Below, in pieces: positions 1 through 4,331 of a DNA stretch of 4,331 nt (within the stretch, counting starts at the first letter, position 1; each line of letters begins with the position of its first letter). Made by a program: the position numbers and the translations under genes. The DNA is from a virus (taxonomy: Duplodnaviria > Heunggongvirae > Uroviricota > Caudoviricetes): the IMG/VR virus record IMGVR_UViG_2698536508_000019; one strand, written 5' to 3'. Under the pieces are notes generated by a model. It saw nothing but the letters and a program-made list of their open reading frames with translations, made no database searches and was not told where the DNA came from.

Positions 1-119
1 CAATACGGTTCTGACGAGTCGCTTACTTTTAACGTACCTTTTTTTATTCCTTTCAGCGCAATTAACTGCTCTTCGGATACCCATTTGCCGGGAGAGACAA
101 TCATGATTACTTCGCTCAT
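1..119 (-). CDS. 5' portion of a small ORF running off the window start (MSEVIMIVSPGKWVSEEQLIALKGIKKGTLKVSDSSEPY...); possibly excisionase-like (Xis/DUF1233-type) protein
   Basis: Hand translation of the minus strand from ATG at 119-117 (a second in-frame ATG lies at 104-102); the frame stays open to position 1. It lies 72 bp downstream of the exonuclease stop, in the same orientation, where lambdoid phages carry xis. The SD is weak (AAGAGA about 14 nt upstream). The excisionase-like call rests on recalled resemblance of the W-x-S-x-x-L-x-A-x-x-G-x-K-x-G-T-L pattern to putative excisionases; not verified. Confidence 0.4.
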   Translation of the reverse strand, partial: MSEVIMIVSPGKWVSEEQLIALKGIKKGTLKVSDSSEPY

Positions 120-148
120 CGATTTCTTTATCTCTTACATCAGACGAG

Positions 149-180
149 CGCCGGTTGCAGAATACCAGTCACAACCGGCG
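149..180 (-). other. GC-rich hairpin (9-bp stem cgccggttg / caaccggcg, 14-nt loop) in the 72-bp spacer between the exonuclease stop and the xis-like start
   Basis: Perfect inverted repeat 149-157 / 172-180 read directly from the sequence. No U-tract follows on either strand, so it is not a canonical intrinsic terminator; could be an mRNA processing or stability element. Confidence 0.4.
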
Positions 181-191
181 ACAGTTGAACA

Positions 192-2663
192 TTAAGAATC
201 AGCCTGACTCGGGATCAGTTTTTGCCAGATAACTGAAACGTATTTTGCCTGGTAACGGGCGTCATCAAGTGCATTATGGCGCTCACCTTCGAATGGAATA
301 GCCGTTCTGGCATCGAAGTCTATGGCTTTCCCCAGCTCAACGATTGTGCGTACATCGCGATCGTTGTAGTAACGCCACGGGCAGGGGATCCCCTGCCGTT
401 CGTATGAACGGCGCAAAATCGTGTTGTCGAAGTTGGCTCCATTTCCCCAGACCTGAACAAAAAATTCACCGGAGTTTTCGTCGATAAATTCCCGCAATTG
501 TAACAGTGCATCATCTAACGGGATTTCATCGGTCATAATGGCAGATTGCGCTTCGCGTGATTGCTTAAGCCACCATTTAATGGTGTCCCGATCAATGACT
601 CCGCCAGCAGTTTCCAGATCGATAGTCTTACTAAATTCCGGTCCCATATCTCCGGTTTGCGGATCGAAAAATATTGCACCTATTGAGATGATCGGGGCAT
701 CAGGATTTTTTCCCATGGTTTCAAGGTCGATCATTAGATGGTCACACGTCCTGCTGGTGGATGTGATTTCGTGATGACCGTTCACCTTAATTGGGTGATC
801 TGCCGTCTCGCCAGTTTCATTATCGCTATTGTGATGCTGATTGCCGCCAGTGTTCTCCTTGTGTGGATGTTCAGCGCCTTCCATTTCCTCCGGATCATCT
901 TCCTGAACTTCAACCTGATACTCTTCATCGAATGTTTCTTGGTATGTTGCGTCGCCCATCACCGCGCCACAATCAGGGCAGTTGCCGCCGCCGGTCTGAC
1001 CGCAGGCGGTGCAGGCTTTTTCCACTTCCTGTTGCGCCACTGGTTCAGGCTGTTTCGTTTCTGGCTCGTTTTGTAACGCATTTGGACTGTTTTGTTCCGC
1101 TTTTTGGTAGTTCCGTTCCGATTCATGCTGGTTCTGGTTCACAGAATCGCGGGTCTGGATCCCCTTAACCCATTTCGGATCATTCGGGTCACTAATCCCT
1201 TCAACAAATTCACCACGTGATGCAGCAAGCAACTTATCGGCGTCAGGCTGGCTGATATTGGCTGCCTGCATAATTTTGTTTACTTCGTCAGCGGTAACTT
1301 TTATCGGCTCTGGTTGTTCTGAATCTTCAGCGGTATCTACATTTTGCGGTAAGCCCGTGTATGTGCCATTTTTTCGGGCAAAATATTCTTCTTTTGTGAT
1401 TTCAGTGGCGCCAGCAGCCAGTGCCTTATCCAGACCAGAAAGTTTGTTTGCGCGACCGTATTTTTCTCCGTCCTTATCTGCGAAGAGGAAATAGAACGGC
1501 CCCTCACGCTCTACAGATGGTTCAGCTTCCGGCGCGGTTTCATTTTTTGGGATATCAGATACCTCAGTTTCCACTGCATCAGTTTGTGTTTCTGATGACT
1601 GGAGAACATCAACAGTGCCCAGGTCTGTTTCTTCATTCTCAAACACGCCCTTTGTCGTCAGGTATTCGCAGATATATTTGTTCAGTGCTACGGGATCTTT
1701 GTGAATGTCGATCGGACGCTCACGGACAAGGCCAAAAATAGTTTGGCGGTCGTAGCGAAGGGCATCAGGCTGTTTGCGCATTGATGCCGAGATACGCTTC
1801 CAGTCTTCGCGGTCGTTGTCGATAACTTCTTTTTTTGCCCAGCGATGGATGCTGCCGTCAATGTTTCCGGCATCCACATCACCAGGCCAGAGAGCGTAGG
1901 CCAGTTCGTCATCCAGTGTTTTCCATGTCTGCTTGTATTCGCGATGAATGGCAGCAATGACCGGGCTGATTTTTCCTGTTGAATTTTCAGTGTACTGTTG
2001 ATTGGCTCTGGCGCGGGCGAGATCAACAACAGACGTGTATTTTCCGGTTTCCTTGCGTTCACCTTCGCGACGTTTTTTCCAGATGCGCATCTCTGCCTGA
2101 ATTTCGGGCCATTTAGCACCAGGAATACATTTATGCTTAACCCACCCAATGGCGTGCAACTTAAGCTCCGGATACATGGCGTTAACTTCTGGCATTTTCA
2201 TCAACGCTTCAACGATATGTCCGTCGAATGTTGCCATGTCTTCCTGCAACAATTCCTGTGCGCTAATAACCATATCAACGGTGATGTTTTCACATGTGTC
2301 GAACTTAACCATGACAGCGTTCTGTACTTCAGGGGCCAGCTTGTCAAAAGTGACGTTCATCGGATCGGATTCAGTCTCAACCGGGACAAAAGAAGCAGAC
2401 TCCTCATCCCAGCGGTTTTCCTGCATATATTCAGCATCCCATGAATCGAGGGCAGGGCGGGGTATGCCAGGTTTATCCTCGCAGACAATAAATTTATAAG
2501 CGCAGTCCTGAGCAGCCGGATAATGTTCCAGGAACTGCCAGTGAAATTTTGCTCGAGCACGGCGTTCGTCGCCAGCTTCAATGGCTGTGGCTACAGCCAC
2601 AGAGCCTTCTTCCCTTGTTGCCAGTTCGTCAGGAATAGCGGCGCAAATAAAGACTTTACTCAT
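192..2663 (-). CDS. Exonuclease VIII-like mosaic protein: RecE-like middle segment, CxxC-x7-CxxC zinc-ribbon motif, C-terminal DEDDh (DnaQ-like) 3'-5' exonuclease domain
   Basis: Single 823-codon ORF (ATG 2663-2661, TAA 194-192). GAGG Shine-Dalgarno motif (plus-strand cctc at 2674-2677) sits 10 nt upstream of the ATG. Segment DKLLAASRGEFVEGISDPNDPKWVKGIQTRD (aa 476-506, nt 1146-1238) matches, from memory, a segment of E. coli Rac RecE. CTAC...CPDC at aa 551-565 (nt 969-1013). C-terminal domain (aa about 640-815, nt about 219-746) carries the three DEDDh motifs: LMIDLETMG (D646 at 726-728, E648 at 720-722), GANFDNTIL (D746), HNALDDA (H796 at 276-278, D801 at 261-263). Confidence 0.92.
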   Translation of the reverse strand: MSKVFICAAIPDELATREEGSVAVATAIEAGDERRARAKFHWQFLEHYPAAQDCAYKFIVCEDKPGIPRPALDSWDAEYMQENRWDEESASFVPVETESDPMNVTFDKLAPEVQNAVMVKFDTCENITVDMVISAQELLQEDMATFDGHIVEALMKMPEVNAMYPELKLHAIGWVKHKCIPGAKWPEIQAEMRIWKKRREGERKETGKYTSVVDLARARANQQYTENSTGKISPVIAAIHREYKQTWKTLDDELAYALWPGDVDAGNIDGSIHRWAKKEVIDNDREDWKRISASMRKQPDALRYDRQTIFGLVRERPIDIHKDPVALNKYICEYLTTKGVFENEETDLGTVDVLQSSETQTDAVETEVSDIPKNETAPEAEPSVEREGPFYFLFADKDGEKYGRANKLSGLDKALAAGATEITKEEYFARKNGTYTGLPQNVDTAEDSEQPEPIKVTADEVNKIMQAANISQPDADKLLAASRGEFVEGISDPNDPKWVKGIQTRDSVNQNQHESERNYQKAEQNSPNALQNEPETKQPEPVAQQEVEKACTACGQTGGGNCPDCGAVMGDATYQETFDEEYQVEVQEDDPEEMEGAEHPHKENTGGNQHHNSDNETGETADHPIKVNGHHEITSTSRTCDHLMIDLETMGKNPDAPIISIGAIFFDPQTGDMGPEFSKTIDLETAGGVIDRDTIKWWLKQSREAQSAIMTDEIPLDDALLQLREFIDENSGEFFVQVWGNGANFDNTILRRSYERQGIPCPWRYYNDRDVRTIVELGKAIDFDARTAIPFEGERHNALDDARYQAKYVSVIWQKLIPSQADS

Positions 2664-2756
2664 TTTGTTTTAACCTCATGACAGATTTAAGGATGAACAA
2701 ATCCCTGCCATTGCTGGCATATAAGAATGAAACCGGATATTTATTACGGAACTGTT

Positions 2757-2948
2757 TTAAAGACCTGCCGGGATTTCGATATTATCCTGGTGAATAACTT
2801 TATCGACCGGGTAACAGTTACCGGGAATTTTCTGTTCGGTTGCTGCAGTCATACACTCCTGCATTGTCCTGTGAACACTGACTGCAATATCAACTGGCAC
2901 TCCGGAAACAAGAAAAACTGTCAGAACAAGCGCAAATGCTGAATTCAT
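2757..2948 (-). CDS. Small hypothetical protein (63 aa) with a hydrophobic N-terminal segment; possible single-pass membrane or exported protein
   Basis: ATG at 2948-2946 overlaps the TGA (2947-2945) of the upstream gene as an ATGA coupling motif. An AAGGA SD-like sequence sits 9 nt upstream, inside the upstream gene's 3' end. Product MNSAFALVLTVFLVSGVPVDIAVSVHRTMQECMTAATEQKIPGNCYPVDKVIHQDNIEIPAGL has about 25 hydrophobic N-terminal residues and two Cys. The six-frame track extends this ORF to ATG 3002, but that would overlap the upstream gene by 58 nt in another frame. Confidence 0.55.
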   Translation of the reverse strand: MNSAFALVLTVFLVSGVPVDIAVSVHRTMQECMTAATEQKIPGNCYPVDKVIHQDNIEIPAGL

Positions 2949-3133
2949 TGTGCACATCCTTTTGGCATCAGACGTAAACGAGCCAGCATTGAAACAATGC
3001 ATATTTTATTTAATAGCTCCCGTTCTTGTTTTCTCTTGTTAATGGCATCTTCAGTAAATACAGGGTTACTGATAGTGACACCAATTTCAAAACAACCTTC
3101 AGACGTATTAACGTTTGGTAATAACGTTTTCAT
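2945..3133 (-). CDS. Small hypothetical protein (62 aa); Kil-like (KilR-type host-killing protein) by position only
   Basis: ATG at 3133-3131 is preceded by a strong SD (GAGGA, plus-strand tcctc at 3141-3145, 7-nt spacer). Product MKTLLPNVNTSEGCFEIGVTISNPVFTEDAINKRKQERELLNKICIVSMLARLRLMPKGCAQ; TGA at 2947-2945. Position and ATGA coupling to the next small gene mirror the kilR-ydaE arrangement upstream of recE in Rac. No sequence-level identification was possible. Confidence 0.6.
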   Translation of the reverse strand: MKTLLPNVNTSEGCFEIGVTISNPVFTEDAINKRKQERELLNKICIVSMLARLRLMPKGCAQ

Positions 3134-3150
3134 TATCGCGTCCTCAACAA

Positions 3151-3298
3151 TGAATTTTGTGATGCAGTGCCTGGTGCCTCCAGGTGACGTTAACCAGTTA
3201 ACAATTAACGTCGGATACAGAGAATCCACCCATAACACTGTTTTTGGTTTTAACTGTTCCGCGTGCGCTTAGCCGTATTCACCGCATCACAAAATTCA
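3151..3298. repeat. Pair of 19-bp inverted repeats (18/19 match; 15-bp perfect core tgaattttgtgatgc / gcatcacaaaattca) bracketing a 110-bp segment
   Basis: Left arm 3151-3169 (tgaattttgtgatgcagtg) and right arm 3280-3298 (caccgcatcacaaaattca) are reverse complements with one a/g mismatch. The left arm ends 18 nt upstream of the Kil-like ATG and abuts its SD. Confidence 0.8.
3186..3212. promoter_or_regulatory. Operator-like palindromic cluster gacGTTAACcaGTTAACaaTTAACgtc (8-bp inverted outer arms, three TTAAC repeats)
   Basis: Read directly: gacgttaa (3186-3193) is the reverse complement of ttaacgtc (3205-3212); GTTAAC palindromes at 3189-3194 and 3197-3202. It lies 55-80 bp upstream of the leftward Kil-like gene, inside the segment bracketed by the 19-bp inverted repeats. 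A CCTGG-n5-CCAGG mini-hairpin (3170-3184) is adjacent. Confidence 0.4.
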
Positions 3299-3385
3299 CT
3301 TTAAAAAGGGCGGCAGAGCAGTCACGGAGTAAAACTGATACCGCCAAACGTCACCAGAAAATTGATAACAGAGGGCGTTGCAGCG

Positions 3386-3556
3386 GGGTTGTCACTTAAG
3401 CGTATGGTCAACCTGACAACCCGGTGTCCTCAACGGGGAAGGAATAACCCCGCCATACTTACCGCCGCGCCATTTTGCGGGTTGCCACAACCGGAAGCGC
3501 ACGGTCGAATTAAATTTAACGACACCGTACAGTGAGACGAACTTCGCCGTGCGCTT
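3386..3556. other. Cluster of nested inverted repeats in an ORF-poor, relatively GC-rich stretch; possible structured RNA or attenuator-like element or multi-site regulatory DNA
   Basis: Inverted repeats read from the sequence: gggttgtca/tgacaaccc (3386-3394 / 3414-3422); cgggg/ccccg (3434-3438 / 3448-3452); aagcgcacgg/ccgtgcgctt (3495-3504 / 3547-3556, 10 bp perfect). An inner hairpin around the 10-bp palindrome TTAAATTTAA (3510-3519) has a stem (3501-3507) that overlaps the left arm of the 10-bp repeat, so the two pairings are mutually exclusive. No ORF with an RBS or protein-like composition was found here. Confidence 0.35.
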
Positions 3557-3598
3557 TCGTGTTGTGTGCCTGCTTTTAACCACGTCAGGCGAGGTGGT

Positions 3599-3627
3599 AT
3601 CCTTAAAATCACCACAGTTTTAAGGAT
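3599..3627. promoter_or_regulatory. 10-bp perfect inverted repeat atccttaaaa-n9-ttttaaggat whose right arm contains the Shine-Dalgarno sequence of the downstream membrane-protein gene
   Basis: 3599-3608 and 3618-3627 are exact reverse complements; AAGGA (3622-3626) lies 11 nt upstream of ATG 3638. Could be an operator or an SD-sequestering RNA hairpin. Confidence 0.45.
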
Positions 3628-3637
3628 TCATTAAGCA

Positions 3638-3958
3638 ATGTCGCAACCACCAATAAATCCGCTTAAGAACATGAAAATTGATTACTGGTATAAAGCGCTT
3701 ACAGTTGTTGGCGCTGCGTTGTTTGTCTTTAATGGAACGTCTTTTTTTGACAGATATCCCGTTGTTCCATTGGGTTTTTTGTCCTCCGGCATCTTTTTTA
3801 TTGGTTTGGGGGAGTGGATTAATCACCCTCTCATAGTGAGATTTATTGGTCCTGGAGTTTGGACTCGTGGATATAATCGTTCTTCGTGCGCACTCGGTAT
3901 CATCTTCGACATACTTGGTTGTTTCCTGATTGTTACAGGAGTCGTCAAGTTCTTCTGA
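3638..3958 (+). CDS. Small integral membrane protein (106 aa, about 3 predicted TM helices); candidate SieB-like superinfection-exclusion protein by position
   Basis: ATG 3638 with AAGGA SD; TGA at 3956-3958. Product has three hydrophobic helices (TVVGAALFVF, LGFLSSGIFFIGLG, ALGIIFDILGCFLIVTGVV) with charged residues between them. The overlapping minus-strand ORFs are K/N/R/T-rich, as expected for the antisense of a membrane-protein gene. It is divergent from the Kil-like operon across a roughly 500-bp gap, as sieB is in Rac. Confidence 0.6.
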   Translation: MSQPPINPLKNMKIDYWYKALTVVGAALFVFNGTSFFDRYPVVPLGFLSSGIFFIGLGEWINHPLIVRFIGPGVWTRGYNRSSCALGIIFDILGCFLIVTGVVKFF

Positions 3959-4058
3959 TGTAAAACCGCAAATGGGGCACGTAACGGGAATTTTGAAAAG
4001 CGTTTCTCCGGGTTCCAGAACAAAATTTTCTGCGGTCTGATTTTGCTTCTCATATTTG

Positions 4059-4331
4059 TGAGGTAGCCTGAGTTTAACGGACACTCCTTCCTGAAATAGA
4101 ATGGCATCAGAAGGAGCTAATAATGAGCAGAAAAACCCAACGTTACTCTAAAGAGTTCAAAGCCGAAGCTGTCAGAACGGTTCTTGAAAATCAACTTTCG
4201 ATCAGTGAAGGCGCTTCCCGATTATCTCTTCCTGAAGGCACTTTAGGACAATGGGTTACCGCCGCCAGAAAAGGGCTCGGTACTCCTGGTTCCCGCACGG
4301 TGGCTGAACTGGAATCTGAAATTCTGCAACT
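4059..4331 (+). mobile_element. Left end of an IS3-family insertion sequence (possibly IS600-like), extending beyond the window
   Basis: A TGAGG... terminus typical of IS3-family ends (5'-TG) begins at about 4059, 64 bp upstream of an orfA-type gene with a strong SD (AAGGAG 4111-4116). The OrfA N-terminus is an IS3-family HTH protein. The exact boundary is uncertain by a few bp, and the IS600 assignment is from memory. Confidence 0.75.
4123..4331 (+). CDS. IS3-family transposase OrfA (HTH DNA-binding subunit), N-terminal part, continues past window end
   Basis: ATG 4123 preceded by AAGGAG with a 6-nt spacer. Translation MSRKTQRYSKEFKAEAVRTVLENQLSISEGASRLSLPEGTLGQWVTAARKGLGTPGSRTVAELESEILQL has the characteristic (Y/F)SxEFKxxAV opening and HTH of IS3-family OrfA proteins; the open frame runs to the window end. 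Confidence 0.85.
   Translation, partial: MSRKTQRYSKEFKAEAVRTVLENQLSISEGASRLSLPEGTLGQWVTAARKGLGTPGSRTVAELESEILQ

What the first reader, a model, noticed from the sequence alone, without database searches (positions are those of the whole stretch)
192..2663. Exonuclease VIII-like gene is a mosaic with a DEDDh 3'-5' exonuclease C-terminus, not a RecE-type nuclease
The 823-aa product shares a recognisable middle segment with Rac RecE (aa 476-506), but its C-terminal 180 aa carry the three DEDDh/DnaQ-like motifs (D646-x-E648, D746, H796-x4-D801). True RecE has a PD-(D/E)XK 5'-3' nuclease core there. A protein that would be annotated by homology as exodeoxyribonuclease VIII is therefore predicted to have the opposite polarity, so its role in recombination or anti-host activity is unclear.
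Basis: partly seen in the sequence, partly recalled or inferred. Interest (0 to 1): 0.5.

Follow-up and report, generated by a model that had tools for sequence, protein, structure and literature searches.

The report
Prophage RecE-like gene with 3'-5' exonuclease
This common E. coli prophage gene (an intact ydfE) joins the uncharacterised front part of RecE to a DexA-like 3'-5' exonuclease instead of RecE's 5'-3' nuclease; databases already record this, but its function is untested.

Summary
Window 192-2663 (minus strand) is an intact 823-aa ORF. Its C-terminus (aa 642-813) is a Pfam PF16473 "Rv2179c-like" DEDDh domain (E = 2.4e-67). All five catalytic residues are present, and the predicted fold is closest to T4 DexA. 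There is no PD-(D/E)XK domain. It ends abruptly just before RecE's nuclease domain, so only RecE's "unknown function" part is shared. The gene is the intact form of the K-12 Qin pseudogene ydfE, the last gene of the DicA-repressed dicB operon, directly upstream of xis-int.

Related loci show a modular system. Two scaffold types (PF06630 RecE-N or YdfE_N) each occur with either nuclease. PD-(D/E)XK versions are followed by recT (3/3 contexts). DEDDh versions never are (7/7). The DEDDh domain DNA is in 75% of complete E. coli genomes, against 32% for the RecE nuclease domain.

The most likely activity is a Mg2+-dependent 3'-5' exonuclease acting on DNA without an annealing partner. Its biological role is untested. 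RefSeq and Pfam already annotate it correctly, so novelty is low.

The parts
192..2663 (-). Intact ydfE-type gene, 823 aa (stop codon at 192-194). By 100% DNA identity it is the RefSeq CDS WP_000048369.1 'exonuclease' of E. coli O26:H11 11368.
1896..2663 (-). N-terminal YdfE_N-type region, aa 1-256. It is 99% identical to the K-12 Qin ydfE pseudogene product and is not RecE-like. The structure is only weakly predicted and has no known fold.
783..1880 (-). Region homologous to the non-catalytic part of RecE. Window aa 262-627 align with K-12 RecE aa 278-592.
797..1244 (-). High-identity block shared with recE (78-82% DNA identity, 74% protein identity, aa 474-622). Its 3' edge at about window 797 is the swap junction, '...ETGETA|D'.
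966..1013 (-). CxxC-x8-CxxC zinc-ribbon-like motif (CTACGQTGGGNCPDCG, aa 551-566), also present in RecE as CNACGQTGGDNCPDCG.
   Evidence: weak NCBIfam zinc-ribbon hit
741..965 (-). Acidic, probably flexible linker, aa 567-641 (20 Asp/Glu against 3 Lys/Arg in 75 residues). The junction lies inside it.
   Evidence: first 12 residues of the C-terminal model have pLDDT below 50
225..740 (-). DEDDh (DnaQ-fold) 3'-5' exonuclease domain, Pfam PF16473, aa 642-813. Catalytic codons are D646 (726-728), E648 (720-722), D746 (426-428), H796 (276-278) and D801 (261-263).
2757..2948 (-). ydfD (lysis protein, DUF1482), the gene immediately upstream in the operon.
2945..3133 (-). dicB (cell-division inhibitor), in the same operon.
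3308..3359 (-). DicF sRNA, in the same operon.
27..119 (-). Truncated excisionase (xis) remnant directly downstream of the exonuclease. No recT lies between them.

Best explanation
The gene is an intact ydfE. It is the last gene of the PL-like dicB operon of a Qin/Rac-type lambdoid prophage and occupies the slot that recE-recT (or lambda exo-bet) occupy in related phages.

The protein is modular. A ~560-aa non-catalytic scaffold comes first: a YdfE_N region, then a region homologous to the 'unknown function' part of RecE that includes a zinc-ribbon-like motif. A ~75-aa acidic linker follows. The C-terminus is a DEDDh domain of the DexA/EcD/Rv2179c family (PF16473).

Shown here: the domain identity, the intact catalytic pentad, the predicted DnaQ fold, the exact swap junction relative to RecE, and the absence of recT.

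Inferred: the domain removes nucleotides from 3' ends by two-metal (Mg2+) hydrolysis, which is the opposite polarity to RecE. It most probably acts on DNA, because its closest characterised relatives, T4 DexA and E. coli EcD, are DNA exonucleases. It works without a single-strand annealing partner, so it does not carry out RecET-type recombination. It is made when the prophage is derepressed. The scaffold probably tethers or targets the nuclease.

The most likely role is 3'-end trimming or degradation of DNA during early lytic development, as host or competitor DNA scavenging or end processing. That role is not established.
For: - Pfam PF16473 covers aa 642-813 with E = 2.4e-67.
- D646, E648, D746, H796 and D801 align with the DexA catalytic residues and are invariant.
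- The AF2 model has pLDDT 83.9 and pTM 0.81. Foldseek's top hit is T4 DexA 8kel (E = 1e-12, TM 0.72), followed by RNase T, Orn and REXO2.
- Sequence and profile searches of the PDB hit only DexA (E = 1.5e-6 and 2.5e-15).
- DexA is itself a PF16473 member (79.9 bits).
- A 189-aa E. coli protein that matches the EcD primers and the paper's A78 is 38% identical to the window domain (E = 2e-37) and is also PF16473.
- EcD and DexA are reported to be 3'-5' DNA exonucleases (PMC12153337).
- RecE homology stops at RecE aa ~592, just before the 3H4R nuclease domain at 605-866.
- The RecE N-terminal domain is described as of unknown function (PMC11611040).
- P0121 and P0131 have the same scaffold with a PDDEXK domain, and in the one locus examined (P0121, L005) the gene is followed by recT. 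P0241 and P0245 have the RecE scaffold with DEDDh and no recT.
- No recT is present in 7 of 7 DEDDh contexts.
- The complete phage HannyBb has no recognisable SSAP.
- Operon membership and DicA repression come from PMC10448788.
- The gene is intact in functional phages and very widespread.
Against: - No enzymology exists for this protein.
- The founding member of the Pfam family is reported to be an exoribonuclease, and RefSeq often names the protein '3'-5' exoribonuclease', so RNA remains a possible substrate. The structural neighbours RNase T, Orn and REXO2 are RNases that can also cut DNA.
- The scaffold's function is unknown, and its model is poor (pLDDT 66, pTM 0.34) with no fold match.
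- The K-12 northern blots did not detect transcripts reaching ydfE, although that copy is IS2-truncated.
- Absence of recT was checked in ten loci, not genome-wide.
- The proposed biological role rests on analogy and gene position only.
Confidence: 0.6

Rival explanations
1. It is a true RecE / exodeoxyribonuclease VIII: a 5'-3' dsDNA exonuclease that makes 3' tails for RecT.
For: Several GenBank phage records annotate it this way. The central region is homologous to RecE. It occupies the same genomic slot as recE.
Against: It has no PF12684/PD-(D/E)XK domain, whereas RecE has one. The NCBIfam equivalog scores 281 bits against a cutoff of 1269. The C-terminal fold is DnaQ-like, not RecE-like. 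No recT lies downstream.
Confidence: 0.01
2. It is a 3'-5' exoribonuclease, like M. tuberculosis Rv2179c. It would trim or degrade RNA during prophage induction, for example host or phage transcripts, or products of dicF operon processing.
For: The Pfam family is named for an exoribonuclease, and RefSeq uses the name '3'-5' exoribonuclease'. The structural neighbours include RNase T, oligoribonuclease and REXO2.
Against: The closest solved and characterised relative is the DNA exonuclease DexA, by sequence, profile and fold. DexA itself belongs to PF16473, so the family name does not fix the substrate. EcD, at 38% identity, is reported to act on DNA. The gene sits in the DNA-recombination slot and is fused to a RecE scaffold.
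Confidence: 0.2
3. It is an HREX/EcD-type defence nuclease. The prophage would use it to destroy the 5hmC-modified DNA of superinfecting T-even phages while sparing unmodified host DNA.
For: It shares a family with EcD at 38% identity, and plasmid-borne EcD is reported to digest T4 DNA and protect against T4. It is prophage-borne and present in 75% of E. coli genomes. Its operon neighbour DicB already has an anti-phage effect (the title and abstract of PMC6832061, and the discussion of PMC10448788).
Against: The window protein does not show the paper's two alignable sequence signatures for EcD-type specificity. It keeps Asp (D718) at the DexA D90 tetramer position, where EcD has Ala. It has Tyr (Y766) where DexA and EcD have the 5hmC-stacking Trp. 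The operon is repressed by DicA in lysogens, and no separate promoter signal stands out. EcD has no scaffold and is itself an early gene of a P2-like prophage. The PADLOC search gives only a generic DEDDh hit. The EcD claim rests on a single overexpression study.
Confidence: 0.15
4. It is a decaying, non-functional remnant in a cryptic, IS-riddled prophage.
For: The window prophage carries IS insertions on both sides of the region: IS600 at ~4046-4331, and an IS66-family element beside the truncated xis. K-12's copy is a pseudogene.
Against: The 823-aa ORF is intact and the catalytic residues are invariant. The same gene at 93.5-99.7% DNA identity is present in the phages HannyBb, PhiR42_1, Tritos and mEp460_ev081. 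The exact protein occurs on 542 contigs, and its cluster has 23,183 members.
Confidence: 0.03

Closest known systems
T4 DexA (exonuclease A; PDB 8KEL/8KEN)
   Same: It has the same Pfam family (PF16473), the same DEDDh catalytic pentad and the same predicted fold (TM 0.72). It is the best hit by sequence, profile and fold in the PDB.
   Different: Identity is only ~25%. DexA is a 227-aa stand-alone protein with extra loops, whereas the window domain is the C-terminus of an 823-aa protein. DexA W152 corresponds to Y766 in the window protein. DexA belongs to a virulent phage with modified DNA, and this gene belongs to a temperate lambdoid prophage.
EcD, the E. coli DexA homologue of the proposed HREX defence (PMC12153337)
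   Same: It is a PF16473 DEDDh domain. The EcD-like sequence recovered here is 38% identical (E = 2e-37). It is also carried on a prophage in E. coli.
   Different: EcD is a 189-aa stand-alone gene in a P2-like prophage. It has Ala at the DexA-D90 position and Trp at the W152 position, where the window protein has Asp and Tyr. The identity of my EcD candidate rests on the primer match and on A78. The accession HAK9828821.1 could not be confirmed.
RecE (exonuclease VIII) of the Rac prophage, with RecT
   Same: The central region is homologous (aa 262-627 against RecE 278-592), including the GEFVEGISDPNDPKW motif, the zinc-ribbon-like motif and the acidic linker. The position in the early-left operon upstream of xis-int is the same.
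   Different: The window protein has neither the PF06630 N-terminal domain nor the PD-(D/E)XK nuclease domain (3H4R), and there are no recT, ralR or rcbA genes downstream. The predicted polarity is 3'-5' rather than 5'-3'.
YdfE of the K-12 Qin prophage (pseudogene b1577)
   Same: It is 99% identical over aa 1-256 and sits in the same dicB-ydfD-ydfE-int position. Pfam names the scaffold domains YdfE_N and YdfE_C.
   Different: The K-12 copy is truncated by IS2 after aa 256 and therefore lacks the RecE-like region and the nuclease domain.
Rv2179c of M. tuberculosis (founder of PF16473)
   Same: It belongs to the same Pfam family.
   Different: I could not compare it directly. The defining paper is not held, and neither the sequence and profile searches at E <= 0.001 nor the 50 best fold matches listed returned any chain named Rv2179c or M. 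tuberculosis. Its reported substrate is RNA (from my own knowledge of Abendroth et al. 2014).

Membership tests
DEDDh / DnaQ-like 3'-5' exonucleases, subfamily PF16473 (DexA/EcD/Rv2179c-like) | Profile match above the curated threshold over the whole domain | tested here: met
   PF16473 scores 226.5 bits against a cutoff of 27, covering aa 642-813 and model positions 2-177 of 177.
DEDDh / DnaQ-like 3'-5' exonucleases, subfamily PF16473 (DexA/EcD/Rv2179c-like) | Exo I motif D-x-E, Exo II Asp, and Exo III H-x4-D | tested here: met
   D646/E648, D746 and H796/D801 align with DexA D7/E9, D119 and H186/D191 and are invariant.
DEDDh / DnaQ-like 3'-5' exonucleases, subfamily PF16473 (DexA/EcD/Rv2179c-like) | RNase H-like DnaQ fold | tested here: met
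   The AF2 model has pLDDT 83.9. Foldseek matches DexA at E = 1e-12, followed by RNase T, Orn and REXO2. This is a prediction, not an experimental structure.
DEDDh / DnaQ-like 3'-5' exonucleases, subfamily PF16473 (DexA/EcD/Rv2179c-like) | Mg2+-dependent 3'-5' exonuclease activity | not testable with these tools
   This needs a biochemical assay.
RecE / exodeoxyribonuclease VIII | C-terminal PD-(D/E)XK nuclease domain (PF12684; PDB 3H4R) | tested here: not met
   The window protein has no PF12684 hit, whereas the positive controls RecE and P0131 do. The C-terminal fold is DnaQ-like.
RecE / exodeoxyribonuclease VIII | NCBIfam equivalog NF007259 above its cutoff | tested here: not met
   It scores 281 bits against a cutoff of 1269 and matches only aa 246-623.
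RecE / exodeoxyribonuclease VIII | PF06630 N-terminal domain | tested here: not met
   It is absent from the window protein and present in RecE and P0241.
RecE / exodeoxyribonuclease VIII | Adjacent recT annealing-protein gene | tested here: not met
   The gene is followed directly by xis-int. Rac and L005 have recT in that position.
HREX / EcD-type 5hmC-specific defence exonuclease | Loss of the DexA D90 tetramer Asp (Ala in EcD) | tested here: not met
   D718 aligns with DexA D90, while EcD-like has A78 at that position.
HREX / EcD-type 5hmC-specific defence exonuclease | Trp equivalent to DexA W152, and an acidic residue equivalent to D169 | tested here: inconclusive
   Y766 aligns with W152. 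It is aromatic but not Trp. The D169 loop could not be aligned reliably.
HREX / EcD-type 5hmC-specific defence exonuclease | Selective digestion of 5hmC DNA and protection against T4 | not testable with these tools
   This needs an experiment.
YdfE family (Pfam YdfE_N PF27430 + YdfE_C PF27432) | Sequence identity to YdfE and the same operon position | tested here: met
   The window protein is 99% identical to K-12 YdfE over aa 1-256 and lies in the same dicB-ydfD-ydfE-int order. PF27430 and PF27432 are precomputed on homologues 90-100% identical over aa 1-510. These two models are not in the local Pfam copy, so they were not run on the window protein itself.

The most novel reading that the evidence does not exclude
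The RecE/YdfE-type N-terminal scaffold could be a general delivery platform that brings interchangeable nucleases to one cellular or viral target. On this reading the DEDDh version, present in three quarters of E. coli genomes, would be a widespread and unrecognised weapon of inter-phage conflict. It could be an HREX-like exonuclease against phages with modified DNA. Alternatively it could be a counter-defence enzyme that removes 3'-ended ssDNA or cDNA products of host immune systems. In either case it would not be a recombination enzyme.
Probability: 0.15. Interest if true: 0.65.

Novelty: already known. Interest (0 to 1): 0.3.

Why it matters
The practical point concerns annotation. Genes labelled 'exodeoxyribonuclease VIII' in many phage and prophage records are not RecE-type enzymes, and they should not be counted as RecET recombination systems or mined as recombineering tools. 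In E. coli this DEDDh form is more than twice as common as true RecE.

The biological point is modest. The same uncharacterised RecE scaffold carries nucleases of opposite polarity, and only the 5'-3' form travels with RecT. This gives a natural swap experiment for asking what the long-unexplained N-terminal ~560 aa of RecE do. The link to DexA and EcD also gives concrete substrates to test.

Tried and rejected
- **Scaffold structure.** Structure prediction of aa 1-350 gave a weak model (pLDDT 66, pTM 0.34). Foldseek against the PDB found nothing (best E = 1.3), so no fold could be assigned.
- **Finding EcD.** The reverse-primer 20-mer hit only an unrelated portal-gene region, a chance match. 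The forward-primer 17-mer did find a 189-aa candidate, but the accession HAK9828821.1 could not be confirmed among the cluster members listed.
- **Rv2179c paper.** The defining paper is not held in the library, and the PDB searches did not return an Rv2179c chain. No direct comparison with the family founder was possible.
- **Literature searches.** The first RecE search was swamped by 'recent' and 'receptor' matches, and two searches failed on syntax. Searches for ydfE, DUF5051, PF16473 and Rv2179c-like found no functional study of this protein.
- **Promoters and terminators.** The scan found no more sites than shuffled sequence gives (3 against 5.9 promoter-like sites; 5 against 5.8 terminator-like sites). 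There is therefore no evidence for a private promoter or for a terminator isolating the gene.
- **PADLOC.** The search gave only a generic Cas-associated DEDDh hit (E = 1.8e-5), with no membership of a defence system.
- **E. coli 'stand-alone' domain genes.** I considered whether the 183-aa E. coli domain genes (P0096) are independent genes. In L006 the gene follows contiguous 456-aa and 157-aa ORFs in the same slot, so it is probably a split or frameshifted long gene.
Full report
**Observation.** The window holds an 823-aa ATG-initiated ORF at 192-2663 on the minus strand. Pfam-A places PF16473, '3'-5' exoribonuclease Rv2179c-like domain', on aa 642-813. The match covers model positions 2-177 of 177, with E = 2.4e-67 and 226.5 bits against a gathering score of 27. 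A weak RNase_T hit covers the same stretch.

**Test of the refutation criterion.** It does not.
- The window protein has no PF12684 hit, while the positive controls do: Rac-SA53 RecE (PF06630 plus PF12684) and P0131 (PF12684).
- K-12 RecE aa 605-866 is the solved nuclease 3H4R.
- An AlphaFold2 model of aa 625-823, built on a 28-sequence alignment, has mean pLDDT 83.9 and pTM 0.81.
- Foldseek against the PDB returns T4 DexA (8kel/8ken, E = 1e-12, TM 0.72). RNase T, a DnaQ domain, REXO2 and oligoribonuclease follow, all with DnaQ folds.
- Sequence and profile searches of the PDB find only DexA, at E = 1.5e-6 and 2.5e-15.
- In a MAFFT alignment with DexA, an EcD-like protein and seven family members, the five DEDDh residues are invariant.

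**Extent of the RecE similarity.**
- The NCBIfam exodeoxyribonuclease VIII equivalog matches aa 246-623 against model positions 271-600 of 877. It scores 281 bits against a cutoff of 1269, so the protein is not an ExoVIII equivalog.
- BLASTP to K-12 RecE aligns aa 262-627 with RecE 278-592 (39.6% identity, E = 3e-62).
- At the DNA level, 78-82% identity runs over gene nucleotides 1420-1867 and then stops dead.
[quoted passage not shown] Everything the window protein shares with RecE therefore lies in the uncharacterised part and the linker.
- The first 256 aa are not RecE-like. They are 99% identical to the K-12 Qin pseudogene product YdfE, which IS2 truncates at that point.
- Newer Pfam models, precomputed on homologues 90-100% identical over aa 1-510, call the scaffold YdfE_N (PF27430) and YdfE_C (PF27432).

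**Genomic context.** The window is 100% identical over positions 1-4060 to E. coli O26:H11 11368, where the CDS is WP_000048369.1, 'exonuclease'. The gene order is repressor, ydfA/B, DicF (window 3308-3359), dicB, ydfD, this gene, xis, int. This is the dicB operon. It is transcribed from a PL-like promoter and repressed by DicA, and only DicF, DicB and YdfD have been characterised in it (PMC10448788). In Rac the equivalent order is recE, recT, ralR, rcbA, xis, int. Here nothing lies between the exonuclease and xis.

**A modular swap system.** The related loci show interchangeable parts.
- P0121 and P0131 are 98-100% identical to the window protein over aa 1-510 but end in the RecE-type PF12684 domain. 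In the one locus examined (P0121, L005) the gene is followed by RecT, Lar/RalR, DUF1187, xis and int.
- DNA of phage HannyBb, which carries the DEDDh form, is 98.9% identical to L005 up to gene nucleotide 1867. After that the two share nothing until the integrase gene.
- P0241 is the converse case. It has the K-12 RecE scaffold, including PF06630, joined at the same '...TGETAD' junction to a DEDDh domain 98% identical to the window's. It sits in a Rac-like prophage (SieB, KilR, YdaE) and is followed directly by xis-int, with no recT.
- Nine of ten long PF16473 proteins taken from different 50%-identity clusters combine PF06630 with PF16473. P0245 lies between ydfD and int, again with no recT.
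- In Klebsiella grimontii the scaffold (423 aa, PF06630) and the nuclease (239 aa) are adjacent separate genes in the same slot.
- All four scaffold-by-nuclease combinations therefore exist. recT followed the gene in 3 of 3 PD-(D/E)XK contexts and in 0 of 7 DEDDh contexts.
- The complete 45-kb phage HannyBb has no annotated or PHROG-recognisable annealing protein.

**Prevalence.** DNA of the DEDDh domain (window 195-740) is found in 4,069 of 5,426 complete E. coli genomes, at 8,111 places and up to seven per genome. DNA of the RecE nuclease domain is found in 1,736 genomes. The exact window protein occurs on 542 contigs, and its 90% cluster has 23,183 member sequences, named 'exonuclease' or '3'-5' exoribonuclease'. 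PF16473 relatives number 12,138 cluster representatives at E <= 0.001, mostly stand-alone proteins of 180-200 aa.

**Closest characterised relatives.** A 2025 paper (PMC12153337) solved the T4 DexA structure. It reports that an E. coli homologue, EcD, digests 5hmC-containing T4 DNA but not unmodified dsDNA, and that it protects cells from T4 when carried on a plasmid.
- Using the EcD forward primer from the paper's supplement, I recovered a 189-aa E. coli protein that starts MIDTET and has Ala at position 78, as the paper describes.
- That protein is a PF16473 member (E = 1.7e-49) and is 38% identical to the window domain (E = 2e-37).
- It lies in the early region of a P2-like prophage, next to a Dam methylase.
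- DexA itself passes the PF16473 threshold, so the family's 'exoribonuclease' label does not decide the substrate.
- The window protein differs from EcD at two positions the paper ties to specificity. D718 aligns with DexA D90, which is Ala in EcD. Y766 aligns with DexA W152, which is Trp in EcD. The 5hmC-only behaviour therefore cannot be transferred to the window protein.

**Mechanism.** The following points are shown: a complete DEDDh active site in a confidently predicted DnaQ fold, joined by a 75-residue acidic linker (20 Asp/Glu against 3 Lys/Arg) to a RecE/YdfE-type scaffold.

The following points are inferred from established knowledge of DEDDh enzymes. The domain carries out two-metal hydrolysis from 3' ends, which is the opposite polarity to RecE. 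DNA is the more likely substrate because DexA and EcD are the nearest characterised relatives. The lack of an annealing partner implies that it does not perform RecET-type single-strand-annealing recombination.

Expression on prophage derepression follows from its place in the operon. The biological role is a guess, with trimming or degradation of DNA 3' ends during early lytic growth as my best estimate. I give about 0.9 to the domain identity and polarity, about 0.6 to DNA as the substrate, and about 0.3 to any specific role.

**Novelty.** However, RefSeq/PGAP and Pfam already encode it, and the protein is among the commonest prophage proteins in E. coli. What may be new is modest. It comprises the explicit two-by-two shuffling at a fixed junction, the strict separation from recT, the finding that the DEDDh form outnumbers true RecE, and the link to DexA and EcD. 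Some GenBank phage records still mislabel the gene as exodeoxyribonuclease VIII.

Noticed in passing
window 3308-3359 (-): A full-length DicF antisense sRNA (Rfam RF00039, 76.7 bits) lies upstream of dicB in the same operon.
   Followed up: partly
window ~4046-4331 and 3620-4084 (-): The right end of the window is an IS600 end. It truncates a phrog_35040 gene of unknown function, leaving 154 of 205 aa.
   Followed up: partly
window 1-119: The excisionase downstream of the exonuclease is a truncated remnant at 27-119. Positions 1-26 are absent from phage HannyBb, whose match starts at position 27. In O26:H11 an IS66-family element (ISCro1) lies beside the xis remnant, so positions 1-26 are probably its end. 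The prophage is IS-riddled, yet the exonuclease ORF is intact.
   Followed up: partly
window 966-1013 (-), aa 551-566: A CxxC-x8-CxxC zinc-ribbon-like motif (CTACGQTGGGNCPDCG), together with the neighbouring motif GEFVEGISDPNDPKW, is conserved between this protein and RecE, and the GE[FY]VEGISDPND motif also appears in Klebsiella homologues. Neither motif has a known function.
   Followed up: no
L039:6401-6991 (-), also L018, L023, L033, L034, L036: The EcD-like exonuclease of the proposed HREX defence lies in the early region of a P2-like prophage, with int, a Cox-like gene, DUF4761, EcD-like, Dam methylase, DUF4406 and GpA in order. The word 'prophage' does not occur in the paper's text.
   Followed up: partly
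L006:737-3127: The 183-aa 'stand-alone' E. coli Rv2179c-like protein (P0096) follows contiguous 456-aa and 157-aa ORFs between ydfD and xis. This looks like a split or frameshifted long ydfE-type gene and not an independent small gene.
   Followed up: no
P0250, P0254, P0255: By eye, some long PF06630 + DEDDh proteins contain two or three copies of a module resembling 'LPFRQRxxAQFI...YHV...LEMDxDNxYVQNLLLAAEN'. This suggests internal duplication within the scaffold.
   Followed up: no
L011:5672-7720 (Klebsiella grimontii): The scaffold (423 aa, PF06630) and the DEDDh nuclease (239 aa) are separate adjacent genes in the same ydfD-to-xis slot. The fusion is therefore not obligatory.
   Followed up: partly
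E. coli genome collection: DNA of the DEDDh domain is in 4,069 of 5,426 complete E. coli genomes, with up to 7 copies per genome. DNA of the RecE PD-(D/E)XK domain is in 1,736. The DEDDh form is therefore the commoner 'RecE-like' gene.
   Followed up: yes
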